A stretch of DNA of 64,000 bases from Candidatus Spongiisociaceae bacterium (GCA_965243165.1 OZ251535.1:1602246-1666245); one strand, 5' to 3'. Shown: positions 11,893-53,779, numbered from the stretch's first letter. Made by a program: numbers and translations. Notes: generated from the sequence alone by a model not told the origin.

Positions 11893-12339
11893 TCAGATAG
11901 TTTTTCCGCCGCACTTCCGCACCCTCGGTAAAAGGGCTGTGCCGTTGGCCTGCCGCAGTGGTCCATACCGCCTTGTGTCTACTCTTCTTCTATACTTGTA
12001 GGCCAACAAAACCTGTGGTCTGTATGATCCAAGTTCGCCGAACTGCTCGGAATTTTCAGCTATAATATTCAAACCCGATTGTACTTGTTCCCAAGCCTTC
12101 TTACGCAGTTGTCTCTTTATCTCTATTACAAACCACTCGTATCTGTTGTTATATTTTCTTAGTACAAGAAGGTCTGGTTTCTTCGTTCCTTTTTCAAGAA
12201 ATGACTGGCATTTATCACAATCTATAGCCATCAGGAATCCCTGGAAGTCAAGGACACATTCTTGATGATCTATAGGGTTGCCGGAAATCAAGCACCCGTG
12301 TTGAAAGTGGATGGCACGTAGGTGCTCTACTTCTATCAC
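11893..12339 (-). CDS. Small protein with a PD-(D/E)xK-like nuclease core, translationally coupled to the upstream AAA ATPase (candidate defence effector)
   Basis: 148 aa in a low-GC (~40%) segment. A GTG start overlaps the ATPase stop (GTGA). Contains ...KPDLLVL...YEWFVIEIKRQ.. (D...ExK). Cys/His-rich N terminus (HFQHGC...H.EC...CDKC). Confidence 0.55.
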   Translation of the reverse strand: MIEVEHLRAIHFQHGCLISGNPIDHQECVLDFQGFLMAIDCDKCQSFLEKGTKKPDLLVLRKYNNRYEWFVIEIKRQLRKKAWEQVQSGLNIIAENSEQFGELGSYRPQVLLAYKYRRRVDTRRYGPLRQANGTALLPRVRKCGGKTI

Positions 12340-13790: not shown

Positions 13791-13862
13791 GTCCCTTCCT
13801 TCCGACAACAGCTTAGCCTGTCCTTGGGGCGTATTGGCTCTATGTCAGCCCGAACGCCCAGT

Positions 13863-14579
13863 TTATTGCGGAAGGCTGCGGATGGTCTCGAGGGCGATCC
13901 TCACCATGCCGTCGAAGGTGCGCTCCCGCTCGTCGGGGGAGGAGGCTTCGCCGGTGACGAGGTGGTCGGAGACGGTAACGACGGCCAGCGCCCGCGCCCG
14001 CTCCTCGGCGGCGATGGCGTACAGCCCGGCCGCTTCCATCTCCACCGCCAGCACCCCCATCCGCTGCCAGATCTCGAGGGCGTTGTCGTAGGTGTTGTAG
14101 AACAGGTCGGAGGTGTGGAGGTTGCCGACGCGGGCCTCGATGCCCAGCCGGCCGGCGGCGTCGGCGGCCGCCCGCAGCAGCCCGAAGTCGGCGGTGGGGG
14201 CGTAGTCCCATCCGTTGTAGCGCCGGCGGTTGACGGTCGAGTCGGTGCAGGCGCCGATGGCCAGGATCGCATCCTTCATCTTCACGTCGGGGGAGATGCC
14301 GCCGCAGGTGCCCACCCGGATGAGGTTCTTCACCCCGTAGGTGCGGATCAGCTCGGTGATGTAGATGGACGCCGACGGCACCCCCATGCCGGTGCCCATC
14401 ACAGACACCGGAACGCCCCGGTAGGAGCCGGTGAACCCCAGCATGTTGCGGACCGAGGTCACCTCCGCCGCGTCTTCGAGGAAGGCCTCGGCTATGTAGC
14501 GGGCGCGCAGCGGGTCGCCCGGCAGCAGGATCGACTCTGCGAACGCCCCTTCGGGGGCCGATATATGGGGGGTGGCCAC
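13863..14579 (-). CDS. deoD: Purine nucleoside phosphorylase, DeoD type
   Basis: 238 aa. Motif [12 protein letters not shown]...VGTCGG...MEAAGLY, hallmarks of the PNP/UDP family 1. Confidence 0.9.
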
Positions 14580-14695
14580 AGATTCCTCCTTCTCCTCGGC
14601 GGGCGGCTCGGGCTCGGGCGCCTCGGCCGGCCCCGTCTTCGTTCCACCATGTGGTACGGTTGCCCGCGAGTCTAGACCCGCCCCGGGGAGGCCGA

Positions 14696-15430
14696 ATGAG
14701 CAGCGTGCGGTCCATCGAGCGGGCCTTCGCGTTGCTCGAGGCCGTCTCGGTTTCCGAGCAGGGGGTCACCGGCCTGGCCGAACGGGCGGGCATTCCCAAG
14801 AGCACGGCGGCGCGGATCCTCAAAACCCTGGAAACGATGGGGGCGGTGGAGAGGGCGCAGGAGGGCGTCTACCGGATCGGGCCCAAGGTGTACGGGCTGT
14901 CCGCCGCCCGGAGCCGGTCGGCCGAGCTGCTGCACAAGGCCCGCCCCCGCCTCGAGATGCTGGCCAGGGTGCTGGGCGAGGACGCCGGGCTGGCGGTGCA
15001 GGACGGCAACCAGGTCCACTTCATCGCCCAAGAAGACGCCGACAACAACGTGGTGGTGCGGGACTGGACGGGGACGCTGCTCCCTATGTACGTGGTTCCT
15101 TCCGGCCTGGTCATCCTGGCCCACTGGCCGCCGGACCAGCTGGACCGCTACCTGAGGGAGAAGCTCAAGCCCTACACCCGGCGCACGGTTACGGATCCGG
15201 CGCTCATCCGCAAGCGCCTGAAACGCATCCGCGAGGAGGGGTGGGCGTGGGTCATCGAAGAGTTCGTGGAGGGCATCAACTCGGTCGCCTCCCCCGTCTA
15301 CGACGACCGCGGGCGGGTGCTGGCCGCCGTCCACGTGCACGGCCCTTCCTACCGCTTTCCGGGCCGGTCCTCCCAGGGGGCGATCGCGGCCGAGGTGGCC
15401 CGGGCGGCGGCGCAGGTTTCCTCCTACTGA
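14696..15430 (+). CDS. IclR-family transcriptional regulator
   Basis: N-terminal HTH (RAFALLEAV...[23 protein letters not shown]) and a C-terminal IclR effector domain. Confidence 0.85.
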
Positions 15431-15498
15431 CCGAGCATTCTCGGGTCCGCCCTCGTTCGGGGGGCGGGTTCGCGTCCGTTGCCGCGGGCGGAGGGCCG

Positions 15499-16053
15499 TC
15501 AGGGAGTGGAGTGCTTGCGGGCGGCGAACACCCGGCGGACCATCGGCTCGAAGAACTCCAACGGCAGCGGCTCGTAGTCCGGATCGAAGCAGTTCTGGTC
15601 GTAGCGGGCGCAGAACTCCACCGCATCCCCGTACCAGGGGTGGTCCTCGAAGACGTCGCGGGCGTTGCGGTCCCCGCCGAAGTGGTGGAAGTAGTAGTAG
15701 CCCTGGAACAGGCCGTGATGGCGGATGATCCAGTAGTTCTTCTCGGAGACGTAGGGCCGCAGGATGTCCGCCGCCGCCTGGCTGTGGTTGTAGGGGGAGA
15801 TCAGGTCGCCGATGTCGTGGAGCAGGCAGCACACCACGTACTCCTCGCTCCGCCCGTCCCGGTGGGCGCGGCTGGCCGACTGCAGGGCGTGTTCGAACCG
15901 GCTGATCCGGTAGCCGGTGTCCCCCTCGTTCCACTGCACCCACTCAAGCAGCCGGTCCACGTAGTCGGCGTGGAGGCCCTCCTCCAGGCGGGCGAGGAGC
16001 TCGTAGTCCTCCTTGGTGCCGTCTTCCATCCTGGTGAAAGAGACCTGTCGCAT
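15499..16053 (-). CDS. HD-domain phosphohydrolase-like protein
   Basis: 184 aa C-terminal segment of a long artefactual ORF. Motif HD...(CLLHDIGD) with His-rich motifs. ATG at 16053. Confidence 0.6.
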   Translation of the reverse strand: MRQVSFTRMEDGTKEDYELLARLEEGLHADYVDRLLEWVQWNEGDTGYRISRFEHALQSASRAHRDGRSEEYVVCCLLHDIGDLISPYNHSQAAADILRPYVSEKNYWIIRHHGLFQGYYYFHHFGGDRNARDVFEDHPWYGDAVEFCARYDQNCFDPDYEPLPLEFFEPMVRRVFAARKHSTP

Positions 16054-16197
16054 ATTCGCTCTCCGTGCTGGGTCCGGGCCGGCGCCGGGGGGCGGGAACG
16101 GCGGTTTCCCCTCGGCCTCGGCGCTTTCATCACTCAAGCGCCCGGCGGGGGTAGTATTCATTCCGCACAGGCCGGTTTCGCACCAGGAGTTTACAAC

Positions 16198-18048
16198 ATG
16201 ATGAGAGATGTCGAACGGGAACGCCTCGAGATCGACCAGACGATCGGGGACATGACGCTGGTCGACCTGATGGACCGCAACGCCGAGAAGCACGGCAGCC
16301 TGGCGGCCCTCCGGTGGGAAGCCGACGACGGGGTGCGCACCCTGAGCTGGGCCGCCTACCGGCGGCAGGTGCGGGAGGCGGCCGCCGGTCTGCTGGCCTT
16401 GGGCGTCGGGCGGGGGGCGTTCACGGCCCTGCAGGCCTCCAACCGGCCCGAACATGTGATCGCGGACCTGGGCGTCGTGTACGCCGGGGCCACCCCGGTC
16501 TCGGTCTACAACACCCTCGCCCCCTCCCAGATCAAATACATCGCCGGCCACTGCTCGGCCTCGGTCGCGGTCGTGGAGAACACCGACTACCTCGACCGTT
16601 GGGAGGAGATAAAGGGCGAATTGCCGGACCTCGGCTGCATCGTGGTCATGGAGCTCTCGGAGGACCGCCGCACCGAAGGGGTGATCTCTTGGGGCGATCT
16701 GCTCGCCAAGGGCAAGGCCGCCTTGGAGGAGACCCCCGATCTGGTCGACCGTTCGGCGGGGGAGGTCTCCCCGGGCGATCTGGCCACCCTCATCTACACG
16801 TCCGGCACCACCGGAACCCCCAAGGCGGTGATGGTCACCCACCGCAACCTGCTGTGGACCCTCGAGTGCGTGGCCCGCACCTTCCTGGACATCCCCGACC
16901 ATCTGCGGCTGGTGTCGTATCTGCCGCTCGCCCACATCGGGGAGCGGGTGGTCAGCCACTACGCGCCGATGTGGTGGGCCGGCTCCGCCCGCTACGTGCC
17001 CGACCTGACGCAGGTGCTGCCGGCGGTGCAGGAGACCCGCCCCGACGTGTTCTTCGCGGTGCCGAGGGTGTGGGAGAAGTTCCACGCCGGGCTGATGGCC
17101 AAGCTGGAATCCAACCCCAACGCCCGCAAGCGCGCCTTGGCCCTCAAGGCGGTGGATCTGGCCTGGTCCGTCCAGAAGCTCGAGCATTCGGGCGGCAAGC
17201 CCGGACTGGGGGACAGGATCAAGCTGGCCCTGTTCGACCGTCTGGTCTTCTCGAAGATCCGACATGGGCTGGGGCTGGACGAGCTGGTGCTGGCCATCTC
17301 GGCCGCCGCCCCCGTCTCGCCCGAACTGCTGATGTTCTTCCGCGGCATCGGCGTCCCCGTCTTCGAGCTGTACGGCATGACCGAGTCGACCGGCCCCGGC
17401 GCCACCAACCGTCCGGGCAGCGACCGGATCGGCAGCGTCGGCCCCGCCATGCCGGGGGTGGAGATCGCCACCGAGGACGACGGGGAGGTGCTGATCCGGG
17501 GCGGGCTGGTCACCGCCGGGTACTACAAGGATCCGGAGGGCACCGCCCAGACCTTCGACGACGACGGCTGGCTGCACACCGGAGACCTGGGCCGCCTCGA
17601 CGGCAACGGTTTCCTGTCGATCGTCGGGCGCAAGAAGGAGATCATCATCACCGCCGCCGGCAAGAACGTGGCGCCGGCCCGGCTGGAGAACATGATCAAC
17701 GAGCACGCCCTCATCTCCCAGGCCTGCCTGGTGGGGGACGGGCGCCGCTACCTGACGCTGCTGGTGGCTCTCGACCCCGACAACGCCCCCGGATGGGCCG
17801 AGAGCAACGGGGTCGAGTACGAGAGTTTCGAGGCCTTCAGCCGCACCCCCCGGGTGGCCGAGGAGGTGGAGCGGATCGTAGAGGCCGCCAACGGCGAGGT
17901 CGCCCGGGTGGAGCAGGCCCGCAAGTGGTACATCGCCTCCGAGCCCTGGACGGTGGAGACCGGAGAGCTGACCCCCTCCCTCAAGCTGAAGCGCCGGGTG
18001 GTGCTGGAGAACTACTCCGCCCAGATCGAGGAGATGTACGCCGACTGA
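16198..18048 (+). CDS. Long-chain-fatty-acid--CoA ligase (AMP-dependent synthetase, FadD type)
   Basis: AMP-binding motif YTSGTTGTPKAV and a GDLGRLDGNGFLSIVGRKKE motif. The ORF 14572..18048 is this gene with a spurious N-terminal extension. Confidence 0.9.
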   Translation: MMRDVERERLEIDQTIGDMTLVDLMDRNAEKHGSLAALRWEADDGVRTLSWAAYRRQVREAAAGLLALGVGRGAFTALQASNRPEHVIADLGVVYAGATPVSVYNTLAPSQIKYIAGHCSASVAVVENTDYLDRWEEIKGELPDLGCIVVMELSEDRRTEGVISWGDLLAKGKAALEETPDLVDRSAGEVSPGDLATLIYTSGTTGTPKAVMVTHRNLLWTLECVARTFLDIPDHLRLVSYLPLAHIGERVVSHYAPMWWAGSARYVPDLTQVLPAVQETRPDVFFAVPRVWEKFHAGLMAKLESNPNARKRALALKAVDLAWSVQKLEHSGGKPGLGDRIKLALFDRLVFSKIRHGLGLDELVLAISAAAPVSPELLMFFRGIGVPVFELYGMTESTGPGATNRPGSDRIGSVGPAMPGVEIATEDDGEVLIRGGLVTAGYYKDPEGTAQTFDDDGWLHTGDLGRLDGNGFLSIVGRKKEIIITAAGKNVAPARLENMINEHALISQACLVGDGRRYLTLLVALDPDNAPGWAESNGVEYESFEAFSRTPRVAEEVERIVEAANGEVARVEQARKWYIASEPWTVETGELTPSLKLKRRVVLENYSAQIEEMYAD

Positions 18049-18086
18049 CCCGCGCCGTTCCCGGCCGGTCGCCTCGGCAGGCTGAT

Positions 18087-19076
18087 ATGGGCCCTTCCCG
18101 GCTTCCCAGGGCGGTGGTTACACGCCGCCCGCCCGGCGCCGCCGAGGCGATGCTGGCGGAGGCGGCCGAGGTGTGGACCTGGCCGGAGAACCGCCCTATT
18201 CCGAGGGGTGAGCTGCTGGCCGGGGCGGGGGAGGCGGACGGCCTCTACTGCATGCTCACCGACCGGATCGACTCGGAGCTGCTGGACGCCGCCCCGCGGC
18301 TGGCTGCGGTCAGCCAGATGGCGGTGGGGGTGGACAACATCGATTTGGCGGCGTGCACGGCGAGGGGGATTCCGGTGGGCCACACCCCGGACGTTTTGAC
18401 CGAGGCCACCGCCGACGCCGCCTTCGGCCTGTTGATAGCCGCCGCCCGCCGCTTCAGGGAAGGGATGGAGGACGTCGCGGGGGGCCGGTGGGGGGAGTGG
18501 GACCCCATGTACATGGTCGGATCGGACATTTTCGGCTCCACCCTCGGCGTGGTCGGCCTCGGCCGGATCGGCCGGGCGGCGGCCCGCCGGGCGTCCGGCT
18601 TCGGGATGCGGATTCTCTACACCAAGCGCCGCCGCGACCCCGCCGCCGAGAAAGAACTGGGTGTGGAGTACCGCCCATTCGAACAGTTGCTGGCCGAGTC
18701 CGACCACGTGATGGTGCTGACCAGCCTCCACCCCGGCACCCATCGGCTGATCGACCGGGCTGCGCTGGCCGCCATGAAGCCCTCCGCCACCCTCGTAAAC
18801 GCCTCCCGCGGTCCGGTGGTCGACACCGACGCCCTGGCCGAAGCCTTGGCCGCCGGGTCGATAGCGGCGGCCGGACTGGACGTGACCGACCCGGAACCCC
18901 TTCCCCCCGGCCACCCGCTCGCCTCCTTCCCCAACTGCTTCATCGTCCCCCACATCGGAAGCGCCACCGTCCGCACCCGCATCCAGATGGCCGAGCTGGC
19001 GGCGGCCAACCTGACATCCGCCCTCCAAGGACAGCGGATGCCCCACTGCATCAACCCCGAGGTCTACTCGGCTTGA
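18087..19076 (+). CDS. D-isomer-specific 2-hydroxyacid dehydrogenase (glyoxylate/hydroxypyruvate reductase family)
   Basis: NAD-binding motif GVVGLGRIGRAAARR. Catalytic region ...NASRG...D...HIGSAT. Start at MGPSRLPRAVVTRR. Confidence 0.85.
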   Translation: MGPSRLPRAVVTRRPPGAAEAMLAEAAEVWTWPENRPIPRGELLAGAGEADGLYCMLTDRIDSELLDAAPRLAAVSQMAVGVDNIDLAACTARGIPVGHTPDVLTEATADAAFGLLIAAARRFREGMEDVAGGRWGEWDPMYMVGSDIFGSTLGVVGLGRIGRAAARRASGFGMRILYTKRRRDPAAEKELGVEYRPFEQLLAESDHVMVLTSLHPGTHRLIDRAALAAMKPSATLVNASRGPVVDTDALAEALAAGSIAAAGLDVTDPEPLPPGHPLASFPNCFIVPHIGSATVRTRIQMAELAAANLTSALQGQRMPHCINPEVYSA

Positions 19077-19089
19077 CTATCATGGGCTG

Positions 19090-22000
19090 ATGGGCAACCC
19101 AGGTAGATCAGTTTCCCAGAGATGGGAAGGTCCTGATGGACCGCTCGGCGAGTACATCCGTAAGGAGACTCATAATACGTTAGAAGCGTATCGAAATCAA
19201 CCTAACTATGTTGATAGAGATGGCAAGGCTGAGGAATCCAAGGCAAAAGGTGGTTACGCTGGCCGTCAGTTGTTAGAGCTGGTTCAGAACAGCGCCGATG
19301 CTTTGGAAGGAACCAAAGGTGGACGTATAGAGGTGCATCTGGATCAAAATTATCTCTATTGTGCTGACAACGGCAATCCTATCGGCAAAGACGGTATAAC
19401 CGCTTTGATGTTTTCCTATCTGTCAACCAAACAAGGAGTGAACCAGATCGGCAGGTTTGGATTAGGTTTTAGATCGGTGCTAGAGATTACAGACAGTCCA
19501 GAATTCTTTTGCCGTGCGGGGTCCTTTGGTTTTTCTAGATCACGTGCCAAAGAAAAAATTGAAGACTTTTATCCCGATGCTCAATACTATCCTGTTTTGA
19601 ATTTGCCATTTCCGTTAGCACCTGAGCCAGAGTTCGAAAGTGATCCAATCCTGAAAGGACTTAGTACGTGGGCGATGAATATTGTTCGCCTTCCTTTGAA
19701 GCCAGGCGCGGGCGATGGTCTTATCAAACAGATAAGATCGTTTCCATCTGAATTGCTGTTATTCGTTGAGCATGTGAAGGAGATGAAGCTTTCAATGAAA
19801 GAATATTGTTCTAAGGTGACTCTTGAAAGAGTTGATGACTTATATCTTCTCCATAAGGATGATGATCACAGTCTTTGGAAACTTTTTGAGTGCATCTATG
19901 AGCTATCTGACGAGGCTTTAGAAGACGCGAAACCAGTTTATGAAGAGGACAGTGTCCTTATCACCTGGGCTGTACCAATTGATCGGATGAACGCTCCGAG
20001 TTATAAGAATTTTTGGATTTTCTTCCCTACGAAAACAGCAAGTCTTGTAGCAGGTATTCTCAATGCTCGCTGGAAGCCACATGAAGACCGTCATAACCTA
20101 CTATCAGGGGCTTATAATAAAGAACTTATTGATGACACGGCTGATCTTATTATCGACTATTTAGATCAGCTTTCCACTGATGATGATCCAGCTCAACATT
20201 TGGATGCCTTACCGCGCCGACTTGAATCCGGTGATAGTGCACTCACAAATCAACTCCGTGACAAGCTATATTCTGGTCTAGTAGAGCATGAGGTGGTTCC
20301 AGATCAGGATGGCCAATTGCAGAAGATTCGAGACATTTCATATCCGCCGATCAATCTGCCAGTAGAGGCACTAAATATGTGGTCCGATTGCAAGGTTCGA
20401 CCTTCAGAATGGCTCCATCATACGGCTCGTACTCGTACAAGATTCTCGGTTATAGAAAGGATATTCGAATTTGCTAAAAATGGTCGGAGTAGTTTGCTAT
20501 ATTCATATTTACAAATTGGAAGTTCCAGACATGTCCCGGTTTCTAGCCTATCCGAATGGTTGGAGGCATTGGTAAATACTGCTAGCTCGGAAGAAGATTC
20601 TGTTCACGCTTCAATAGTTGCTGTCCAGATTGCTGCTATATTGATTGACGATGATAAATGGCAGGACACAGAATTTGGTAATATCTTGCTTTCAGCTAGT
20701 AATAACTGGTGTCTTCTTGATGCAGATAGTCTCTTTTTGGGCGGAGAGGAGGAACATACAGATATGTCAAAAGCAAGCCTTGTGCATCCTCAATTGGAAT
20801 CCGATCCTGAAACCCTGAGAATCTTGCAAGAATATTTTCGATTTGATTCAATGAGCTCAGAATTAGCCTTCCGAAGAAAGGTTGAAGATCTGTACCAAAG
20901 GGGAGAATGGGAGAAACTTTGGACTATATCCCGAGATGCTAATGCATTGTGGTTACAGATTATTCAGGATCAGCCTTGCTGGTATAATGTTCTTCGGCTC
21001 CGTAGTGTGTCTGGTGAGTGGTATCGCTTTTCAGAGTTACTATTACCGGGATATATTGTGCCTAGTGATGGTAGTCGAGATGCCATAAATGCTATTGATA
21101 TAGAGTATCATCATCAAGACCTTGACCTTGTGCAAAAACTCGGCATGCCCGATAGACCGATAGAGAATTATGATTATAAAGAAATAGAATCTCGAGAGTA
21201 CAATAGGTATAAATATATTTGTTATAGACAATATCTTGACGAAGAATTCCTTTATTCACATCCACGAAGAAACTTGATGGAATTTGATGATCATATGGCG
21301 ATAGGTCCTCTTAAATTATTCGAATACCTGTCTGAAGAGGGTAATGCATTATACACAGAGGCAATCCTTGAATATGACAGCATATTTGAGCCTTGGATAT
21401 TAAGGTATAAAGGGAAATCTACAGAGTACCCCAGTAAGGAGTTTGACTCCCCAGCTATAAAAGCTCTGTTAGAGGATGGTCATATCAGAGTAGGTAATTA
21501 CGGTATTTCTAAACTCTCAGATGGACTAGGCATTAAACCAAAGTCTGAACATGTGAGACGTTGGCTTCTTGAGCACCGTAATTCTAGCCTCTTTCGCAAA
21601 GCTTTTGATATAGAGATAGTTCCAACTATTGAGTTGCTAGGCAAAAGCACGCCGGTTCTTTTAGTTGATGAATGGCCGGGATTAAAACAACATTTAAACC
21701 GTCTTGGATTATCAGACCTTGAATTGATACGGTGTAATCAAATTGGCTTTGATAGTAGCGGTTTTGAGCTAAGCTGTTGGGTAAAGGGAGATAATATATA
21801 TACTTTAGGTGGAGATGAAAGGGATGAACTCCAAGCGATAGTTCTAGAGATCAAGCTGTCGCTTACAGAATCCGAGATAACACAGATCATCTCTCGACAG
21901 ACGGCTGAGGATATCAAAGCAGCTCGCGCCAAAATCCGTAGTAAGTCAACGGATGCCGAACGGTTACTAGCCGCAGTGGGTGAAAGAGCATTGATACACG

Positions 22001-23541
22001 GACTTCCCGCGGCTTTAAGGCGGTACAGAGAGGAAGAAGATCAAGAAGCAGCTGGTATCAGGGCTGCTGAGGCAACTATAGCTATTTACGATGTCGGAGC
22101 TCTATGGGAATATCGAGACCTTCTCCAGGATTTAAGTCCACCAAGTAGATGGGCAGGAAGCCGGCCAGCAGTTGAATTCGTTAGATCGCTCGGGTTTAGC
22201 GAAGAATGGGCTGGACAATCTAGAAGAGGTCGTCCGCCATTTATTGAAGTTGACGGTCCATTTAATTTACCTAAGCTTCATGATTATCAGCGTAAGATAG
22301 CCAACAATCTGAGAGCGATGTTGCGACGAGATATTCTTGAAAGAAGACGCGGCCTCATAAGTCTGCCAACGGGGGCAGGTAAGACGCTCGTAGCAGTCCA
22401 AGCTATTGTTGAAGCAATACGCAACGATGAATATACGGGGGGCGTGCTTTGGATCGCCGATCGAGACGAGCTTTGTGAGCAGGCAGTAGAGGCATGGCGA
22501 CGAGTTTGGTCCAACATAGGAGTTGATGCGGCCCCTTTGCGTATTTCCAGATTATGGCAGGGTAATAAGAATCCTACACCAGTGGGCTTTCAGCATGTCA
22601 TCGTTGCATCTATACAAACACTGAATAGTCGGGTGGTCAGGCAATCTGAAGATAGTAGATTTCTTGAGGCCTTCAAGTTAGTGGTATTTGATGAAGCACA
22701 TCATTCAATTGCACCTAGCTATACACAGGTTATGGCTAAACTTGGATTGACCTTTAGGCGAAAAGAAGATGAACCCTTCTTGATCGGACTGACTGCTACA
22801 CCATACCGCGGGCACAATGAGGAGGAAACACAGCGTCTAGCTAAACGCTATGAGCAGAACAGACTAGATGCTGGGGCTTTTTCAAGTGCTTATGTAGATC
22901 ATTTTTCAAGTGCTTATGCAGATCAAATGACTAACCAACTGCAAGATACAAGAGTCTTGGCGTTCGCCGATCATGAAACTATTGAAGGAGGTGATTTTAC
23001 TCTCACTAAAGAAGCATTACAAGAAATGCTTGAAAAAGGAGTTGCTTGGCTCCCGCCAAGCTTTGAAATTGCGATGGGACTAGACCGTGATAGAACACGG
23101 CGTATTCTTAGGGCGTACGATGAACATATTCGCGGCCAAGGCTGGCCAACACTTATTTTTGCTACTTCAGTAGACCATGCTAGAACATTGGCTGCTCTGC
23201 TTAATGAAGCTGGAGTAACTGCAAGGTCAGTAGATGGAACTACCCCGCATGTGGTTCGTCGTAAAATTGTCAAAGATTTTAGGGCTGGTCAAATTGAGGC
23301 ACTAGTGAACTATAATGTGTTTACTGAGGGGTTTGATGCTCCGCAAACGCGGGCGATCATGGTAGCACGTCCTGTCTATAGCCCCAATCTATATTTCCAG
23401 ATGATCGGGCGAGGTTTACGCGGGCCAAAAAACGGCGGCAATGAAAGGTGCTTGATCCTCAACGTCAAGGACAACATTGTGAACTACGAGGAGAAGCTTG
23501 CTTTCACAGAGCTGGATTGGCTTTGGGCAGACGGACATTGA
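19090..23541 (+). CDS. Giant (1483 aa) fusion protein with an N-terminal MORC/sacsin-type GHKL ATPase, a ~700-aa uncharacterised middle region and a C-terminal DEAH-box SF2 helicase (ResIII-like); candidate single-gene defence/restriction protein
   Basis: Low GC (~42%) against ~69% flanks. N-terminal Bergerat-fold motifs LELVQNSADA...DNGNPIG...GRFGLGFRS. C-terminal helicase motifs: I (PTGAGKT), II (VFDEAHH), III (TATP), VI (QMIGRGLR). Confidence 0.8.
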   Translation: MGNPGRSVSQRWEGPDGPLGEYIRKETHNTLEAYRNQPNYVDRDGKAEESKAKGGYAGRQLLELVQNSADALEGTKGGRIEVHLDQNYLYCADNGNPIGKDGITALMFSYLSTKQGVNQIGRFGLGFRSVLEITDSPEFFCRAGSFGFSRSRAKEKIEDFYPDAQYYPVLNLPFPLAPEPEFESDPILKGLSTWAMNIVRLPLKPGAGDGLIKQIRSFPSELLLFVEHVKEMKLSMKEYCSKVTLERVDDLYLLHKDDDHSLWKLFECIYELSDEALEDAKPVYEEDSVLITWAVPIDRMNAPSYKNFWIFFPTKTASLVAGILNARWKPHEDRHNLLSGAYNKELIDDTADLIIDYLDQLSTDDDPAQHLDALPRRLESGDSALTNQLRDKLYSGLVEHEVVPDQDGQLQKIRDISYPPINLPVEALNMWSDCKVRPSEWLHHTARTRTRFSVIERIFEFAKNGRSSLLYSYLQIGSSRHVPVSSLSEWLEALVNTASSEEDSVHASIVAVQIAAILIDDDKWQDTEFGNILLSASNNWCLLDADSLFLGGEEEHTDMSKASLVHPQLESDPETLRILQEYFRFDSMSSELAFRRKVEDLYQRGEWEKLWTISRDANALWLQIIQDQPCWYNVLRLRSVSGEWYRFSELLLPGYIVPSDGSRDAINAIDIEYHHQDLDLVQKLGMPDRPIENYDYKEIESREYNRYKYICYRQYLDEEFLYSHPRRNLMEFDDHMAIGPLKLFEYLSEEGNALYTEAILEYDSIFEPWILRYKGKSTEYPSKEFDSPAIKALLEDGHIRVGNYGISKLSDGLGIKPKSEHVRRWLLEHRNSSLFRKAFDIEIVPTIELLGKSTPVLLVDEWPGLKQHLNRLGLSDLELIRCNQIGFDSSGFELSCWVKGDNIYTLGGDERDELQAIVLEIKLSLTESEITQIISRQTAEDIKAARAKIRSKSTDAERLLAAVGERALIHGLPAALRRYREEEDQEAAGIRAAEATIAIYDVGALWEYRDLLQDLSPPSRWAGSRPAVEFVRSLGFSEEWAGQSRRGRPPFIEVDGPFNLPKLHDYQRKIANNLRAMLRRDILERRRGLISLPTGAGKTLVAVQAIVEAIRNDEYTGGVLWIADRDELCEQAVEAWRRVWSNIGVDAAPLRISRLWQGNKNPTPVGFQHVIVASIQTLNSRVVRQSEDSRFLEAFKLVVFDEAHHSIAPSYTQVMAKLGLTFRRKEDEPFLIGLTATPYRGHNEEETQRLAKRYEQNRLDAGAFSSAYVDHFSSAYADQMTNQLQDTRVLAFADHETIEGGDFTLTKEALQEMLEKGVAWLPPSFEIAMGLDRDRTRRILRAYDEHIRGQGWPTLIFATSVDHARTLAALLNEAGVTARSVDGTTPHVVRRKIVKDFRAGQIEALVNYNVFTEGFDAPQTRAIMVARPVYSPNLYFQMIGRGLRGPKNGGNERCLILNVKDNIVNYEEKLAFTELDWLWADGH

Positions 23542-24093
23542 TGCTAGATGATCCTTTGCTGTTGGGCCAGACTGGCTCGTTCTGTCGGCGGCACTCTTGG
23601 CGGCGTGCGGCTCGGTGGCACAAGATATATCCCCGAGCCTCACGACCCACGAATCATTCCGTCTGCTTCCGAGGCGGCGGCGATTTCTCCGTCTTATGAC
23701 GTATTGACAGCCGATACCATGAGCTTTCAGGATGGTTTGGAGATAAACGGGCTCTTCGGAAACGAGAGAGGTAGGGGCAGGGCGGAGGTGTCATGGTCAG
23801 GTTTTGTTTGCGAGTGCCGCGTCCTGGTGTCCGTCCCGAGAGGGGCGGATCTGGTTGAAAGCCGCTGGCATGGACCATCTGGCAGCCTCACCCGCACCGG
23901 TAGATTCAGGTTTAGAGTGGCAACACTCAGCTCAGCTATCATTACCGGCTGTGATTGCATTCCCCTCTCCCGACTGGACATACCAGCCTCGCGCCGCCCG
24001 TGACCTACCCGACGTGATGGAAGCGCCGGACAGGCGGGGGCCGTTCGTGGTGCCCATCTCCCTCATTTTGAAGAGGCGGATTAGGGTGAAACG

Positions 24094-24336
24094 ATGAGCC
24101 GGAGTGATTGGAGCGGGTTCGGGTGGCGTCCGGCCCTCGCCGCCGTGTTGATTGGGTGGTTCTTGCCGGTTGCGGCTCTTTGGGCGGCTGTCATCGTTGC
24201 CTTGTTCTCGCTGTGGGCCTGGCGGGCCGAGGGGAGGCGCCGGGCCGGTCTGCTGCTGGGCGCCGCTTCGTGCATGGCGGCGGCCGCCGGCCTCCGTCTG
24301 CTGTCGGCGGTTCCTGTTGTCATCGAGATGACTTGA
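24094..24336 (+). CDS. Small hypothetical membrane protein
   Basis: 80 aa with two TM helices. An agggtga RBS-like sequence upstream. Weak support. Confidence 0.3.
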   Translation: MSRSDWSGFGWRPALAAVLIGWFLPVAALWAAVIVALFSLWAWRAEGRRRAGLLLGAASCMAAAAGLRLLSAVPVVIEMT

Positions 24337-24462
24337 TTCCTGGGTTTCTGGCCGACAGTGGTATGTTGATTGATAAACAAGAACAAGATCGTTCGCTAGT
24401 ATCAGGCCGAAGTACGAGGCGGCGCCGCGATCGGACAGCGGTCAGGACGGGGAAAATCGGAA

Positions 24463-24975
24463 ATGGCGGAATCGACAGGCCGGATCATCGACGACGGGAT
24501 CGACTGGAGGCTCGGCAACTGGGGGGAGGTGGTGCCGGACGACTACCGCAGGATCGAGGCGGCGGCCCGGATGGAACAGCTCGCCGGCGTCTTGTCGGAC
24601 GAGATGGATCGGGTGGCGGACGAGGAAGGCCTGATCAACCAGGGCGACTACAAGGTCCTGTCGACGGTGCGGTTGGCGGAGCACAGGGGCGAACCCATCA
24701 CCGCCATCGAAGTGGCGCGGCGGTTGGAGATGACGGCGGCGACCATGGTCAACCGGATCGACCGGCTGGAGGCGCTCGGCTACGTCCGGCGGAACCCCCA
24801 CCCGCTCGACCGGAGGGCGGCCTACCTGGGCATCACCTCAGAGGGGATAGCCTGCGCGGAGAGGACGGTCCGCCGGCGCACCGAGGTGCGGGAGCGTTAC
24901 CTGTCGGCGCTGACCAAAAGAGAGCGCCAATCCTTCACCAGGTTGCTGCGGAAGCTGGCCGCGGCTTGGATGTAG
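24463..24975 (+). CDS. MarR-family transcriptional regulator
   Basis: Winged HTH ...ITAIEVARRLEMTAATMVNRIDRLEALGYVRR..DRR. Confidence 0.8.
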   Translation: MAESTGRIIDDGIDWRLGNWGEVVPDDYRRIEAAARMEQLAGVLSDEMDRVADEEGLINQGDYKVLSTVRLAEHRGEPITAIEVARRLEMTAATMVNRIDRLEALGYVRRNPHPLDRRAAYLGITSEGIACAERTVRRRTEVRERYLSALTKRERQSFTRLLRKLAAAWM

Positions 24976-24993
24976 GGCCCCCGGCGGGTTGGT

Positions 24994-25806
24994 TCAGCCT
25001 GACGCCCGTTCCTGCAGGAATCGTTCGAGGGCCCCTTCTCGCCGGGCAGTAGGAGCGAGCGGCGTCCGTTTGCCGTCAGAGCGGACGAGCGCGCCGCGCC
25101 GGGTGAGTTCATCGAGCCTCTCCTCGAGCGCCGCCGGGGATGGGCCGCCGGGGCCGGCCTCGGAGATCGTCACCAGCAGGACGCCGGCGTCCGCCTCGAC
25201 CGTTGTCTCGGGGCCGAGGGCCCGGTTGCTGATTCCCAGGGACGAGCCGGCTTCGAGGGCTTCGCCATGCAGGTTCCACTTCGCTCCGGTGATGGTTACC
25301 CCGGCTGCGGTTCCGCCGAGGGGAATCACGCTGAAGACGGCCCCGGCTGCGGCGGGGAGGGTGAGCGGGCCCCGGCCGCCGTGCACCGTATAGGCCGTCT
25401 CCCGCTCCATCACCCAGCGCACCCGGGTATTCCGCAGGGCCGGGGAGGCGATCACCGCCGCGTTCCCCAGCAGGTGGTCGAGCCGCCCCCCGCCCCCTCC
25501 GATCACCGTGATCTCGTCCGCCCCCCGCCGGAGGGCCGCCGCCAGCGCCAGCTCCAGGTCGGTGGCGTCCTTGTCGGGCGGGTGAGCCTCTATCTCGGTT
25601 CCTTCGTCGAACACCGCGTCGAGCGCCTCTTTGCCGATCGAGTCGAGGTCGCCCACCAGGACGTCCACCGTCCGCCCTGCGGCCGCCGCCAGACGGGCGC
25701 CCGAGTCCGCCGCCAGCACCAGGCCGGGGGCGGGAAGGCCGGCCAGCCGCCCGGCCGAGACCGGATCGCCTCCGGTGAATATATGGACGGAGAGCGCGGC
25801 GCGCAT
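24994..25806 (-). CDS. Thiamine pyrophosphokinase
   Basis: 270 aa. Motif VGDLDSI...DKDATDLELAL, the TPK catalytic signature. The ATG overlaps the stop of the upstream propeller gene. Confidence 0.75.
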   Translation of the reverse strand: MRAALSVHIFTGGDPVSAGRLAGLPAPGLVLAADSGARLAAAAGRTVDVLVGDLDSIGKEALDAVFDEGTEIEAHPPDKDATDLELALAAALRRGADEITVIGGGGGRLDHLLGNAAVIASPALRNTRVRWVMERETAYTVHGGRGPLTLPAAAGAVFSVIPLGGTAAGVTITGAKWNLHGEALEAGSSLGISNRALGPETTVEADAGVLLVTISEAGPGGPSPAALEERLDELTRRGALVRSDGKRTPLAPTARREGALERFLQERASG

Positions 25807-27266
25807 CAGGAAGAGGGCGTCGGGGAGGCCGGAGAGAAGGCCGCCATGGAGCCGGGCCCCACCAGGATGGGGTTTTCTTCGTCCAGGGGCTGGAAGAACA
25901 CGTAGTCGTCGTTGCGGTCGAAGGCTGCATACACGAAGCCGGAGCTGTCGGGCGCCCAGAGGTCGTGGCTCAGGTCGTACTGGCCCCAGAAGAGCAGGTA
26001 GCTGCGCAGGAAGGTGTCGGTAGGAACGATGTCCTGGTAGCGGGTGATGCCCCCCGAATCGTAGACGCTCACCGTCATGGCGTTGAGGCCGGCGCCCAGC
26101 AGGAGGATCTTGCGGCTGTCGGGGCTCCACTGCCAGGCGAAGGCGCCGGGGGCGTCGATCTCCTCCGTGCGCCCGGCGGCGAGGTCCACCACCCGCATGG
26201 CCGTGGTCGTTCCGAGGTTCTGTATGGAGTAGGCCACCGACTCCCCGTCGGGCGACAGGGAGAAGTTGAAGTAGCCGGCGCCCCTGCCCAACACCTCGAT
26301 CTCTCCGGTGTCGAGGTCGTGGATGACCAGCTCGTCCCGCCGTTCTTCCGGGCTGTCCGGGTCTGCGCCGCCCGGTTCGGGGGGGCGGACGTAGAGGATC
26401 GACCGGCCCTCGTCGGTCCAGGCCGCCGCTTGGAAATCGGAGTTGGCGGGAACGGGGGCCTCGAGGGGAGAGGAGTCCCCCGTGTCCGGGTCCAGCAACG
26501 CCAGGCTGGTCCTGCCCAGGCGGGTGATCAGCTCGTTCCCCTCCGGGGACCAATGGAAGTAATAGGAAGTGGACGAGTTCATCGGGACGACGGCCTCGCG
26601 GTCGAGGTCGAGGATGGCCAGGGCCACCCGGCCCGGATCGGGCGAACCGAGCATCCCCAGCGCCCGCCCGTCGGGGCGCCACTGCATGTAGTAGACCCCG
26701 AACGGCGTTTCGTAGGAGCGCGCCGCACCCCCCTCCGCCCGGCCCACCGACACCGAGGCGCCCTCCGGGGAGATGCGCGCCCAGGCCACCAGGCTCCCGT
26801 CCGGCGACCAGGTGGGTTGGCTCACGAACTCCCCCTCGGCCGCGTACAGCTCGACCTGTTCGGTGTTGGGGCCGAAGACGGTGACCGACCGGCCGGAGGG
26901 CCCGTTCACCGCCATCTGCATGGCTTCCAGGTCGAGTTCTCGCGGCGAGATGTCCAGCGGGGCGGGCGGGCGGGGGGCGTCCTGTCCGGGTTCGGCGGGG
27001 GCGTCCGTTGTCGTCTGGCCGGCGGCCGGGGCGGCTTCGGCGGCGTCCGATCCGGAAGGGTCCGCTTCTGCCGCCTCCGTCGGGGACGGTCGGGTTTCGG
27101 CGGCGGCCGGAGCGGTGGATGCGGGGGGAAGGGCCGTCTCCGGCGCGCCCTCGAAGACCACTTCGCTGCCGGATGAAGAGCAGGCGGCGGTGAGGAGGAT
27201 TCCGGCGGCGAGCAGGGCGGCGGCCGACGATGCGGGGCGCCTGGCGTGAGCCGCGCGGGTCGTCAT
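25806..27266 (-). CDS. Secreted/lipoprotein beta-propeller protein (TolB/PD40-like WD40 repeats)
   Basis: Start at MTTRAAH with a lipobox LLTAACSSS. Repeated ...SPDG...WSPDG... blades. Confidence 0.7.
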   Translation of the reverse strand: MTTRAAHARRPASSAAALLAAGILLTAACSSSGSEVVFEGAPETALPPASTAPAAAETRPSPTEAAEADPSGSDAAEAAPAAGQTTTDAPAEPGQDAPRPPAPLDISPRELDLEAMQMAVNGPSGRSVTVFGPNTEQVELYAAEGEFVSQPTWSPDGSLVAWARISPEGASVSVGRAEGGAARSYETPFGVYYMQWRPDGRALGMLGSPDPGRVALAILDLDREAVVPMNSSTSYYFHWSPEGNELITRLGRTSLALLDPDTGDSSPLEAPVPANSDFQAAAWTDEGRSILYVRPPEPGGADPDSPEERRDELVIHDLDTGEIEVLGRGAGYFNFSLSPDGESVAYSIQNLGTTTAMRVVDLAAGRTEEIDAPGAFAWQWSPDSRKILLLGAGLNAMTVSVYDSGGITRYQDIVPTDTFLRSYLLFWGQYDLSHDLWAPDSSGFVYAAFDRNDDYVFFQPLDEENPILVGPGSMAAFSPASPTPSS

Positions 27267-27313
27267 GATTCGACTGTAACATGGGACCGTTGCACGAGCG
27301 GCGAGGATGGAGC

Positions 27314-27955
27314 ATGACGACCAGCGAAACAATGACCGCCGAAGCGCTGATGAACTTCAGCGAGGAGGCCGTCGAGCGGATAATCGAGATACGCGATCAG
27401 GAGCCGGGCGACGACGACTACGGCCTGCTCATCGAGATCACCGGCATGCAGGGCATACAGTTCGGCTACTCGTTGTCGTTCATTTCGCTGGCCGAAGTGG
27501 ACGCCGCCGACCACGTGGAGCGCCACGGCGGCCTGACGGTGGTCATCCCGGCCGCCGACTGTGAAAACATGTCCGGCGCCACCCTCGCCGTGTCGACCAA
27601 CCCGGCCGCTCCGGGCCTGGCCATCGACAACCCCAACAACCCTGCGCCCCCCGCCCCGCGTCCGCCCGCCGGCGACCTCACCGGCCCCATCGCCGAGCAG
27701 GCGACCCAGGTGATCGAACAGCAGATCAACCCCGCCATCGCCGCCCACGGCGGCTACGCCCGGCTGGTGAGCGAGGAGAACGGGGTGATCTACCTGGAGA
27801 TGGGCGGCGGCTGCCAGGGGTGCGGGATGGCCGCCATGACCCTGCGGCAGGGGATCGAGCGGATCCTGCGCGATTCCATTCCCGAGATCGTCGAGATCGT
27901 CGACGTCACCGACCACATGAGCGGCGAGAACCCCTACTACGCGGCGTCGCACTGA
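27314..27955 (+). CDS. Fe-S cluster biogenesis protein NfuA-like (degenerate A-type carrier domain + Nfu domain)
   Basis: N-terminal IscA/ErpA-like domain (IEITGMQGIQFGYSLSF). C-terminal Nfu domain with CQGCG. Confidence 0.7.
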   Translation: MTTSETMTAEALMNFSEEAVERIIEIRDQEPGDDDYGLLIEITGMQGIQFGYSLSFISLAEVDAADHVERHGGLTVVIPAADCENMSGATLAVSTNPAAPGLAIDNPNNPAPPAPRPPAGDLTGPIAEQATQVIEQQINPAIAAHGGYARLVSEENGVIYLEMGGGCQGCGMAAMTLRQGIERILRDSIPEIVEIVDVTDHMSGENPYYAASH

Positions 27956-42844: not shown

Positions 42845-42888
42845 TAGTTACTCCTTTCCTTGTGTTATTTTGTGCTTCATAATTGTGT

Positions 42889-53730: not shown

Positions 53731-53779
53731 TTTCTTTTTGCCCTCCTCGTCTCCTGCTATTACCTTTATAGCCGATGGT

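What the first reader, a model, noticed from the sequence alone, without database searches (positions are those of the whole stretch)
19090..23541. 1483-aa GHKL(MORC-like)-SF2 helicase fusion protein alone in a 4.5-kb low-GC island: candidate single-protein restriction/defence factor
The gene is ~42% GC inside ~69% GC DNA, with no mobility genes and ~550 bp of gene-poor intermediate-GC DNA downstream. The N terminus has the Bergerat ATPase motifs of the MORC/sacsin/HATPase_c_3 clade (ELVQNSADA, DNGNPIG, GRFGLGFRS). The C terminus is a complete DEAH SF2 helicase (PTGAGKT, VFDEAHH, TATP, QMIGRGLR) of the ResIII type. About 700 aa in between are unassigned. As I recall it, prokaryotic MORC-like GHKL ATPases have been reported linked to SF2 helicases in predicted restriction-like systems. 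This looks like a fully fused version with a large unknown central region that could hold the effector or target-recognition domain.
Basis: partly seen in the sequence, partly recalled or inferred. Interest (0 to 1): 0.78.

Follow-up and report, generated by a model that had tools for sequence, protein, structure and literature searches.

The report
Lone GHKL–helicase fusion, probable defence gene
A foreign, low-GC gene has replaced a resident gene in this high-GC genome; it encodes a 1483-residue protein with two ATP-driven motors (an Hsp90/sacsin-like clamp and a restriction-type helicase), belongs to a large unstudied family whose relatives sit in known anti-phage systems, and has no recognisable DNA-cutting domain.

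Summary
ORF 19090-23541 (+) encodes 1483 aa at 43.9% GC, between flanks of 67-73% GC, and every quoted motif is present and invariant in 45 homologues.

A sibling contig that is 92-95% identical in its flanks shows the foreign DNA is essentially the ORF alone (~19077-23560). It replaced a resident 204-aa gene. The "gene-poor 550 bp" downstream is the frameshifted remnant of a resident lipoprotein gene.

The N-terminal 460 aa are sacsin/Hsp90-type rather than MORC-type, and match only the N-terminal third of the Tiamat TmtA models. Residues 481-1060 fold confidently but match no solved structure and keep no catalytic-looking residues. The C-terminus is a DEAH ResIII-type SF2 helicase.

The family is large (739 clusters at 50% identity; at least 556 species) and absent from the plasmid collection and from phage records. 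Most of the best matches are marine-sponge symbiont genomes from many phyla. The gene is usually lower in GC than its flanks.

Relatives occur in three settings: alone; overlapping a BrnT toxin gene, with a BrnA-derived N-terminal peptide (25 of 80 loci); or, in a divergent branch, heading a DrmA/DrmB (DISARM-like) operon.

Most likely it is a nuclease-free, dual-ATPase anti-mobile-element factor. Its function is untested.

The parts
19090..23541 (+). Complete ORF, 1483 aa: sacsin-type GHKL ATPase, family-specific middle region and SF2 DEAH helicase in one polypeptide.
   Evidence: At least 964 homologues were found; the 120 listed (all but a few) have the same full-length architecture at 46-58% identity.
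19090..20469 (+). N-terminal module, aa 1-460: Hsp90/sacsin-type GHKL ATP-binding domain (core aa 59-139 = nt 19264-19506) plus the domain that follows it. Homologous to the N-terminal ~430 profile positions of Tiamat TmtA.
   Evidence: PADLOC TmtA 2.1e-54, query residues 21-456 on profile positions 11-428 of 1538. NF047352 64.2 bits, cut-off 50. AF2 model pLDDT 73, pTM 0.76. Foldseek top hits GRP94/Hsp90/TRAP1/HtpG, E ~6e-6. E63, N67, D70, D93, G95, G121, G124, G126 invariant.
20470..20529 (+). Variable linker, aa 461-480.
   Evidence: Column conservation falls to 0.11 here, against 0.6-0.9 on either side.
20530..22269 (+). Family-specific middle region, aa 481-1060: mixed alpha/beta, confidently folded, no known relative and no conserved catalytic-type residues. 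The first ~200 aa are shared with an Arthrobacter plasmid protein from a Dcm/Mza-like operon. Residues ~1000-1060 form a highly conserved lead-in to the helicase.
22273..23529 (+). SF2 DEAH helicase/translocase, aa 1062-1480 (ResIII plus Helicase_C), of the RadD/Hef/XPB/restriction-enzyme type.
   Evidence: Pfam. NCBIfam RadD 113.8 bits, far below its equivalog cut-off of 720. PDB sequence hits RadD, Hef and 7clg. PADLOC mREase_IV, PbeA, DpdF. Motifs I, II, III and VI invariant.
22878..22925 (+). In-frame 24-nt tandem duplication (FSSAYVDH / FSSAYADQ) in a poorly conserved loop between the two RecA-like helicase lobes.
   Evidence: conservation 0.44 for aa 1261-1280.
19077..19089 (.). Left junction: a 13-nt spacer between the stop codon of the resident 2-hydroxyacid dehydrogenase gene (19074-19076) and the ATG. 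Homology to the sibling contig L087 ends at 19076.
23542..24069 (+). Decayed resident DNA. 23561-23721 aligns with sibling contig L087. 23606-23742 encodes, with one frameshift, residues 27-72 of the 326-aa lipoprotein that is intact in L087.
   Evidence: ORF 23548-24003 has no Pfam match.

Best explanation
The gene is a recently and horizontally acquired, self-contained conflict (anti-phage or anti-mobile-element) factor. It belongs to a large, uncharacterised family of dual-ATPase proteins.

Shown:
- One polypeptide carries (i) a catalytically intact sacsin/Hsp90-type GHKL ATPase module homologous to the N-terminal module of Tiamat TmtA, (ii) a ~580-aa family-specific region without catalytic signatures, and (iii) a catalytically intact DEAH SF2 helicase of the kind found in ATP-dependent restriction enzymes and fork-repair helicases.
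- The ORF alone replaced a resident gene.
- Relatives are wired to bona fide defence or toxin modules.

Inferred mechanism:
- The helicase loads on and translocates along nucleic acid, most probably foreign or replicating DNA.
- The middle region acts as the recognition or scaffold element.
- ATP-driven dimerisation of the GHKL module, as in Hsp90, MutL and MORC, clamps or switches the complex.
- Because no nuclease is present in cis, the output in this stand-alone form is probably non-nucleolytic. It could stall or dismantle replication or packaging complexes, trap DNA, or recruit a host factor in trans.
- In BrnT-linked relatives the output is probably release of the BrnT RNase from the BrnA-like N-terminal peptide. 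In the divergent branch the protein works together with DrmA/DrmB.
For: 1. Foreign origin.
- GC is 0.439 against ~0.69 in the flanks.
- Sibling contig L087 is 92-95% identical on both sides but carries other genes at this site. Homology stops at the upstream stop codon.
- L088 and L089 have neither this gene nor the L087/L090 genes at this site, and no MarR.

2. Family behaviour typical of defence genes.
- Gene GC is below flank GC in 74 of 79 related loci, median -0.046, Wilcoxon p 3e-13.
- No neighbour is conserved apart from BrnT.
- Some genomes carry two copies: L037/L068 and L022/L024.
- Nearest relatives cross phylum boundaries.

3. Links to known systems.
- The N-module matches TmtA models at 2.1e-54.
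- P0011 (51% identity) lies among PglZ/SNF2, HicAB and SduA_C genes.
- In 4 of 4 sampled members of the ~33%-identical branch, the gene heads an operon with a UvrD-like helicase, DrmA (1.1e-179 to PDB 7s9v_A) and DrmB (8.1e-74 to 7s9v_B), plus a NERD helicase in 3 of 4.
- In 25 of 80 loci a BrnT toxin gene abuts the start of the gene. All 25 carry an N-terminal 'EYDFSKGERGRFYRP' peptide; 52 of the 55 BrnT-less loci lack it (Fisher p 9e-18). The peptide shares 'DFS...RGRFYRP' with canonical BrnA.

4. Both ATPase sites are invariant.

5. The literature links GHKL ATPases with SF II helicases in restriction-like operons (PMC2292703).

6. A second low-GC islet in the window holds a PD-T4-4_A-like ATPase.
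Against: - No member of this family has been tested. PADLOC 2.0.0 has no full-length model for it.
- No nuclease or other effector domain is detectable.
- In the window and in most sampled loci the neighbours are metabolic genes, not a defence island.
- The family is absent from 72,556 plasmids as a full-length gene. Residues 1-1050 find no match in 50,697 phage records, and only one locus turned up in IMG/VR, so no vehicle is known.
- Within Dehalococcoidia and Acidobacteriota the proteins cluster by lineage, which also fits long residence.
- The closest characterised helicases include repair enzymes (RadD, Hef, XPB).
- The window copy has neither BrnT nor DrmAB, so evidence from those relatives is indirect.
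Confidence: 0.6

Rival explanations
1. A DNA repair, recombination or replication-restart helicase. An accessory RadD/Hef-like enzyme with an Hsp90-like clamp spread among sponge-associated bacteria because it helps them cope with DNA damage or frequent foreign DNA. Its purpose would be genome maintenance, not immunity.
For: - The best characterised helicase relatives are RadD, Hef and XPB.
- No nuclease is present and there is no methyltransferase partner.
- Neighbours are often metabolic genes.
- The whole length is strongly conserved: 55% mean column identity over 45 sequences.
- Proteins partly cluster by lineage.
Against: - The RadD model scores 113.8 bits against a 720-bit equivalog cut-off.
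- There is no conserved synteny. The gene is absent from close siblings of this very genome.
- GC is systematically foreign.
- Relatives are linked to BrnT, DrmAB, a Dcm/Mza-like operon and TmtA.
Confidence: 0.17
2. A selfish or addiction-type element rather than a host-beneficial defence. The gene would persist because it is hard to lose (toxin-antitoxin-like behaviour, as in the BrnT-linked relatives), or because it is a remnant cargo gene of an unrecognised mobile element.
For: - BrnT is coupled to a BrnA-derived peptide in 25 of 80 loci.
- The insertion is ORF-only and replaced a resident gene.
- A possible 18-nt microhomology lies at the right junction.
Against: - The window copy has neither BrnT nor the peptide.
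- No transposase, integrase or repeats are present.
- A 4.4-kb ORF with two invariant ATPase sites kept intact across many phyla points to selection on its activity.
- Toxin-antitoxin-like wiring is itself common in abortive-infection defence (general knowledge).
Confidence: 0.1
3. An RNA- or protein-directed quality-control machine: an Hsp90/sacsin-like chaperone module joined to an RNA helicase, acting on ribonucleoprotein complexes or misfolded proteins. This could be relevant to life inside a host.
For: - The fold neighbours of the N-module are chaperones of the Hsp90 family. Eukaryotic sacsin is described as a chaperone (PMC3710099).
- There are weak sequence hits to eIF4A-III, RIG-I/LGP2 and Dicer helicase domains.
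- The toxin linked to relatives, BrnT, is a ribonuclease.
Against: - The stronger helicase hits are DNA enzymes: ResIII, RadD, Hef, type I/IV restriction enzymes and DpdF.
- Operon partners of relatives are DNA enzymes: Dcm, DrmAB, UvrD-like and NERD.
- The patchy, foreign-GC distribution is unlike that of chaperones.
Confidence: 0.08

Closest known systems
Tiamat (TmtA), a single-gene anti-phage system (PADLOC models PDLC03964-03972). Its experimental validation is recalled from Millman et al. 2022, not checked here.
   Same: A single large protein. The homologous N-terminal ~430-residue sacsin-type GHKL module scores 2.1e-54. Its mechanism is unknown too (PMC10482375).
   Different: TmtA models are 1063-1782 positions long, and nothing beyond position ~540 matches. 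Tiamat is reported to hold a PD-(D/E)xK nuclease (bioRxiv 2024.10.26.620412). This protein instead has a novel middle region and an SF2 helicase, with no nuclease signature.
MORC/paraMORC GHKL ATPases linked to SF II helicases in restriction-modification-like operons (Iyer, Abhiman and Aravind 2008, PMC2292703).
   Same: The same functional pairing of a GHKL ATPase with an SF II (Rad25/ResIII-like) helicase. Laterally mobile.
   Different: Here the two are fused in one chain. The GHKL is sacsin/Hsp90-type, not MORC-type (HATPase_c_3 below cut-off; fold hits). No nuclease or methyltransferase accompanies it.
DISARM (DrmA/DrmB core; PDB 7s9v).
   Same: A branch of the family at ~33% identity is the first gene of operons encoding clear DrmA and DrmB homologues.
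   Different: The window gene has no DrmA or DrmB nearby. Those operons showed no methyltransferase or PLD gene in the sampled flanks, but a UvrD-like and a NERD helicase instead. They may be an undescribed DISARM-like variant.
Dcm-linked Mza-like operon on Arthrobacter sp. 68b plasmid p2MP (WP_173160688.1 and its neighbours).
   Same: The 1096-aa protein shares the N-module and the first ~200 aa of the middle region: 30% identity over aa 26-684, E 3e-79.
ATP-dependent type IV/I/III restriction enzymes (PADLOC mREase_IV; PDB 7clg, which I recall as SauUSI) and the repair helicases RadD and Hef.
   Same: The helicase core is of the same ResIII/DEAH type.
   Different: There is no PLD or PD-(D/E)xK nuclease, no target-recognition domain of those enzymes and no Mod or HsdMS partner. 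The RadD equivalog cut-off is not reached.

Membership tests
Tiamat (TmtA) | N-terminal sacsin-type GHKL module homologous to TmtA. | tested here: met
   PDLC03964 2.1e-54, query 21-456 on profile 11-428 of 1538. Five further TmtA models score below 1e-18.
Tiamat (TmtA) | A match over the rest of the TmtA profile (about 600-1300 further positions, depending on the model, reported to include a PD-(D/E)xK nuclease). | tested here: not met
   No TmtA model aligns beyond query residue 504. No conserved acidic cluster exists in 461-1060.
Tiamat (TmtA) | Confers phage resistance as a single gene. | not testable with these tools
   Needs cloning and a phage challenge.
Sacsin-like Hsp90-type GHKL (NF047352 / Pfam SACS) | Profile match above the curated cut-off. 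| tested here: met
   NF047352 scores 64.2 bits against 50. Pfam SACS reaches only 27.2 against 32.8, over a 27-residue stretch.
Sacsin-like Hsp90-type GHKL (NF047352 / Pfam SACS) | Bergerat-fold ATP site (ExxxNxxD, DxG, GxxGxG) and an Hsp90-like fold. | tested here: met
   Motif residues are invariant in 45 sequences. Foldseek top hits are GRP94/Hsp90/TRAP1/HtpG, with 257 hits at E<=1e-3.
MORC / paraMORC | HATPase_c_3-type GHKL above the Pfam cut-off. | tested here: not met
   HATPase_c_3 scores 14.2 bits against 25, E 0.044. No MORC or MutL chain is among the 50 hits shown.
MORC / paraMORC | An S5-fold transducer domain after the GHKL domain. | tested here: inconclusive
   Some alignments extend into the Hsp90 N+M structures, but at high rmsd. 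Model residues 305-337 have low confidence.
MORC / paraMORC | Association with an SF II helicase. | tested here: met
   Fused in the same polypeptide. Literature.
SF2 DEAH helicase (ResIII + Helicase_C) | Both RecA-like lobes above Pfam cut-offs, with motifs I, II, III and VI. | tested here: met
   ResIII 99.3 bits, DEAD 59.9, Helicase_C 52.1. Motifs are invariant.
ATP-dependent restriction enzyme (type I R, type III Res, type IV SauUSI-like) | A nuclease domain in cis (PD-(D/E)xK, PLD or HNH). | tested here: not met
   None was found by Pfam, NCBIfam or PADLOC. The middle-region fold has no PDB relative. No conserved catalytic cluster exists.
ATP-dependent restriction enzyme (type I R, type III Res, type IV SauUSI-like) | An adjacent methyltransferase or specificity subunit (types I and III). 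| tested here: not met
   The neighbours are a ligase, a dehydrogenase, MarR and TPK.
RadD (NF053632) | The equivalog score cut-off. | tested here: not met
   113.8 bits against 720.
DISARM | DrmA and DrmB encoded in the same operon. | tested here: not met
   Absent from the window. Present next to the ~33%-identical branch.
BrnT/BrnA toxin-antitoxin coupling | A BrnT gene directly upstream, and a BrnA-like N-terminal peptide. | tested here: not met
   tblastn finds no BrnT in the window, and the protein starts MGNPGRSVSQRWEGPDG. Both features are present in 25 of 80 related loci.

The most novel reading that the evidence does not exclude
The family is a new class of nuclease-free immune motor: an Hsp90/sacsin-like ATP clamp coupled to a DNA translocase through a novel ~580-aa recognition scaffold. 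It would act alone, or as a plug-in sensor for different effectors. In about a third of close relatives it has captured the N-terminal peptide of the BrnA antitoxin, so that it leashes a BrnT RNase and releases it on sensing. In a deeper branch it partners DrmA/DrmB. It has spread laterally, and apparently preferentially, among marine-sponge symbionts of ten or more phyla.
Probability: 0.3. Interest if true: 0.78.

Novelty: new variant of a known kind. Interest (0 to 1): 0.62.

Why it matters
If confirmed, this would add an abundant single-gene immune protein that has no nuclease. The family counts 739 clusters at 50% identity and at least 556 species.

It would give a handle on how the still-unexplained Tiamat-type sacsin GHKL module works.

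It would link three system types (Tiamat, DISARM-like, BrnTA) through one shared sensor architecture.

The BrnA-peptide fusion is a testable case of an antitoxin fragment grafted onto an ATP-driven sensor.

The concentration in sponge symbionts fits reports that defence genes are enriched in, and laterally exchanged within, sponge microbiomes (PMC8163846). The family could serve as a marker for that gene flow.

The window also offers an unusually clean natural "knock-in": an ORF-only replacement, with a 92-95% identical sibling genome that lacks it.

Tried and rejected
- **Other architectures for the middle region.** The profile search over 1.84 billion representatives returned only this architecture or fragments of it among the 150 listed.
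- **Mobile-element signatures.** No tRNA, no Rfam family, no flanking direct or inverted repeats. Promoter and terminator counts are at chance level.
- **Downstream ORF 23548-24003 as a partner gene.** Rejected: no Pfam match, and the region is a frameshifted remnant of a resident lipoprotein gene.
- **Conserved partners among 82 loci.** Only BrnT recurs. RecQ-like, DUF4143-type ATPase and dehydrogenase clusters sit at inconsistent positions.
- **Pfam on the 38-aa N-terminal peptides of BrnT-linked relatives.** No hit. The BrnA origin rests on direct comparison with two annotated BrnA proteins.
- **Exact-sequence look-up of the window protein.** Not on record. The organism was inferred only from a flanking dehydrogenase whose named relatives are Acidimicrobiia at 61-62% identity.
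- **Cargo in sibling genomes as defence genes.** Rejected: secreted or lipoprotein-like, with no PADLOC hit.
- **148-aa ORF next to the PD-T4-4_A-like ATPase.** No PADLOC hit.
- **ARMADA/BRIGADE/TALON descriptions (PMC12458937).** None mentions a GHKL-helicase component.

Full report
**1.

The window has a single 4452-nt ORF at 19090-23541 on the + strand, with an ATG start, encoding 1483 aa. Its GC is 0.439. Windows of 500 nt inside it run 0.38-0.50, while the flanks run 0.67-0.73.

Pfam places ResIII at 1062-1240 (2.8e-28), DEAD, and Helicase_C at 1348-1444. It gives only sub-threshold SACS, HATPase_c and HATPase_c_3 hits at 61-141. NCBIfam's sacsin N-terminal ATP-binding-like domain is above its cut-off, at 64.2 against 50 bits.

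In 45 full-length homologues the following residues are invariant:
- GHKL residues E63, N67, D70, D93, G95, G121, G124 and G126
- helicase motifs I (PTGxGKT), II (DEAH), III (TATP) and VI (QMxGRGLR)

So both ATPase sites look functional.

**2. Domain anatomy**

Column conservation across the family shows four segments:
- an N-terminal module, 1-460
- a variable linker, 461-480
- a moderately conserved middle region, 481 to about 1000
- a strongly conserved lead-in to the helicase (1000-1060), followed by the helicase

*The N-module.* It matches nine PADLOC models of TmtA, the single protein of the Tiamat system. The best is 2.1e-54, but it covers only profile positions 11-428 of 1538. An AlphaFold2 model of residues 1-470 (pLDDT 73, pTM 0.76) finds GRP94, Hsp90, TRAP1 and HtpG as its best solved neighbours (E about 6e-6, 257 hits at E<=1e-3). 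The module is therefore sacsin/Hsp90-type, not MORC/MutL-type.

Across 81 sequences down to 31% identity, the middle region keeps almost only W, G, L, P and A residues, plus H674 and C882. No acidic or histidine cluster of the kind that marks PD-(D/E)xK, HNH, PLD or GIY-YIG nucleases is present. I conclude it is a scaffold or recognition region rather than an enzymatic effector, and that the protein has no nuclease.

*The helicase.* It resembles RadD, Hef, XPB, the helicase parts of type I and type IV restriction enzymes, PbeA and DpdF. It is no orthologue of RadD: 113.8 bits against a 720-bit cut-off.

**3. How it got here**

The upstream gene encodes a D-2-hydroxyacid dehydrogenase. Its relatives at 85-94% identity led to four sibling contigs.

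L087 is 94.6-95.1% identical to window 14000-19076 and 92.6% identical to 24070-27953. Homology stops exactly at the stop codon of the dehydrogenase gene (19076). Between the shared flanks, L087 has 1.8 kb with two secreted-protein genes, of 204 aa and 326 aa, where the window has 5.0 kb.

Window 23561-23721 still aligns with L087. Window 23606-23742 encodes, across one frameshift, residues 27-72 of the 326-aa lipoprotein. The foreign DNA is therefore about 19077-23560: the ORF plus 13 nt upstream and about 19 nt downstream. It replaced the 204-aa gene, and the neighbouring lipoprotein gene has since decayed. That explains the "gene-poor intermediate-GC" stretch.

L088 and L089 have no cargo at this site and no MarR. 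L090 has paralogues of the lipoprotein gene.

There are no repeats, tRNA, integrase or transposase. The last codons of the helicase (ELDWLW) and of the displaced gene (ELDWVW) share 15 of 18 nt at the right junction. This may be a recombination microhomology or a coincidence.

The host is probably an Acidimicrobiia bacterium, because the named relatives of the flanking gene are Acidimicrobiia. The window protein's closest relatives are only 55-58% identical. Two of them (L001, L017) are likewise about 45% GC in 64-68% GC genomes. The donor has not been sampled.

**4. The family**

At least 964 homologues share the full architecture, and at least 556 GTDB species representatives encode one.

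The 80 best loci are metagenome-assembled genomes. Most come, by name or bin label, from marine sponges: Candidatus Spongiisociaceae, Poriferihabitaceae, Poriferisodalis and Palauibacter, and bins from Aplysina, Rhopaloeides, Ircinia and Coscinoderma. They are spread over Chloroflexota, Actinomycetota, Acidobacteriota, Gemmatimonadota, Binatia, Alpha- and Gammaproteobacteria, Spirochaetia, Opitutales and Rhodothermales. Sampling bias cannot be excluded. The biome of the window's own genome was not established.

Other family-level observations:
- Gene GC is below flank GC in 74 of 79 loci (median -0.046, p 3e-13).
- Several nearest-neighbour pairs cross phyla at 64-71% identity, while others cluster by lineage.
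- Some genomes hold two copies.
- No full-length member occurs in 72,556 plasmids.
- Residues 1-1050 find no match in 50,697 phage records.
- Only one locus turned up in IMG/VR.

Sponge symbionts are reported to be enriched in restriction-modification and CRISPR genes that are laterally exchanged (PMC8163846).

**5. Contexts of relatives**

(a) *Alone among metabolic genes.* This is the situation in the window, and in L001, L002 and L092.

(b) *Inside a defence island.* P0011 (51% identity) lies between SNF2/PglZ genes, IS elements, HicAB and a Shedu SduA_C gene.

(c) *Coupled to BrnT.* In 25 of 80 loci a BrnT toxin gene (PF04365, 3.6e-26) abuts or overlaps the start of the gene. All 25 of those proteins carry an extra N-terminal peptide, MKxEYDFSKGERG(R/K)F(F/Y)R...; 52 of the 55 BrnT-less loci lack it, and 3 carry it without a detectable BrnT (25/0 against 3/52, Fisher p 9e-18). 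Annotated BrnA antitoxins from Agrobacterium and Iodobacter plasmids contain "IDFSDIP...AVRGRFYRPIK" just before their ribbon-helix-helix strand. The peptide therefore looks BrnA-derived. The large protein occupies the antitoxin's position.

(e) *A DISARM-like operon.* In 4 of 4 sampled members of a branch about 33% identical to the window protein, the gene is first in an operon. It is followed by a UvrD-like helicase, a DrmA homologue (1.1e-179 to 7s9v_A), a DrmB homologue (8.1e-74 to 7s9v_B) and, in three cases, a NERD helicase. The recent survey of YprA-family systems does not mention a GHKL-helicase partner.

**6. Interpretation**

The shown facts point to a conflict-system protein. These facts are: foreign origin, ORF-only replacement, two intact ATPase sites, homology of the N-module to TmtA, and recurrent wiring of relatives to toxins and defence cores. 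I put this reading at about 0.6.

The mechanism is inferred. The helicase would translocate on nucleic acid, most probably DNA. The middle region would serve recognition or scaffolding. The GHKL module would act as an ATP-driven dimerising clamp or switch. With no nuclease in cis, the stand-alone form would act without cutting DNA, or through host factors. BrnT-linked and DrmAB-linked relatives would use those partners as output.

The rivals are a repair or recombination helicase (0.17), a selfish or addiction element (0.10) and an RNA or protein quality-control machine (0.08).

**7. Comparison with what is known, and novelty**

The protein is not a TmtA. Only the first ~430-540 positions of the 1063-1782-position TmtA profiles match, and the reported nuclease is absent. 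It is also not a MORC or paraMORC, not RadD, not a restriction enzyme, and in this window not part of DISARM or BrnTA.

It works most like the GHKL-plus-SF II-helicase pairings predicted in 2008 (PMC2292703), here fused and stripped of nuclease and methylase. I rate it a new variant of a known kind.

The family-level findings are the parts a specialist would find surprising: the BrnA-peptide graft, the DrmAB-linked branch, the skew towards sponge symbionts and the novel middle fold. None has been tested experimentally.

Noticed in passing
Related loci L020, L033, L038, L040-L043, L045-L049, L051, L054, L057-L060, L063, L065, L066, L069, L073, L078, L081 (about 9600-10000 in each): A BrnT toxin gene abuts or overlaps the start of the GHKL-helicase gene. 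All 25 of those proteins carry a ~28-aa N-terminal peptide (MKxEYDFSKGERGRFYRP...), which 52 of the 55 BrnT-less loci lack (25/0 against 3/52). The peptide shares 'DFS...RGRFYRP' with canonical BrnA antitoxins. This looks like an antitoxin fragment grafted onto a giant ATPase.
   Followed up: partly
L093 1642-15092; L094 9001-23187; L095 10001-21813; L096 1034-16529: In a family branch about 33% identical to the window protein, the GHKL-helicase gene heads a conserved operon: a UvrD-like helicase, DrmA, DrmB, and in 3 of 4 cases a NERD helicase. No methyltransferase or PLD gene was seen in the sampled flanks. It may be an undescribed DISARM-like variant.
   Followed up: partly
L003-L082: The best 80 genomic relatives are almost all metagenome-assembled genomes of marine-sponge symbionts from ten or more phyla. 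This suggests niche-linked lateral spread, but sampling bias was not controlled for.
   Followed up: partly
window 11893-13808 (-): A second low-GC islet (0.40-0.53 GC, about 11900-13800) holds a 490-aa AAA_15/AAA_21 ATPase at 12336-13808. It matches PADLOC PD-T4-4_A end to end (2.3e-46). A 148-aa ORF (11893-12339) overlaps its stop codon and has no PADLOC hit. This is probably another acquired defence pair.
   Followed up: partly
window 41699-44223 (-) and 50568-55129 (-): Two further low-GC islets (0.43-0.57 GC) each encode RDD-family membrane proteins next to ~445-aa proteins with a weak trypsin-like C-terminus. They appear to be paralogous cassettes of unknown role.
   Followed up: no
window 23470-23560 against L087 7940-8000: The helicase C-terminus (ELDWLW) and the C-terminus of the displaced 204-aa resident gene (ELDWVW) share 15 of 18 nt exactly at the right junction. 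This could be a microhomology used in the replacement, or a coincidence.
   Followed up: partly
window 22878-22925: An in-frame, near-perfect 24-nt tandem duplication inside the helicase gene (FSSAYVDH/FSSAYADQ), in a variable loop.
   Followed up: no
[not shown]
   Followed up: partly
L087 7170-8949; L088 10979-11654; L090 10982-13948: The site between the 2-hydroxyacid dehydrogenase gene and MarR/TPK varies among sibling genomes: empty, one to two secreted or lipoprotein genes, or the helicase.
   Followed up: yes
L007 14144-14406 and 16823-17085; L037/L068 and L022/L024: One locus repeats the 3' end of the gene 2.7 kb downstream. Two metagenome-assembled genomes each carry two diverged copies of the family.
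   Followed up: no
L084 8001-12641 (IMGVR_UViG_3300003747_000017): This is the only IMG/VR contig with a relative (37% identity). Whether it is a true viral or proviral context was not examined.
   Followed up: no
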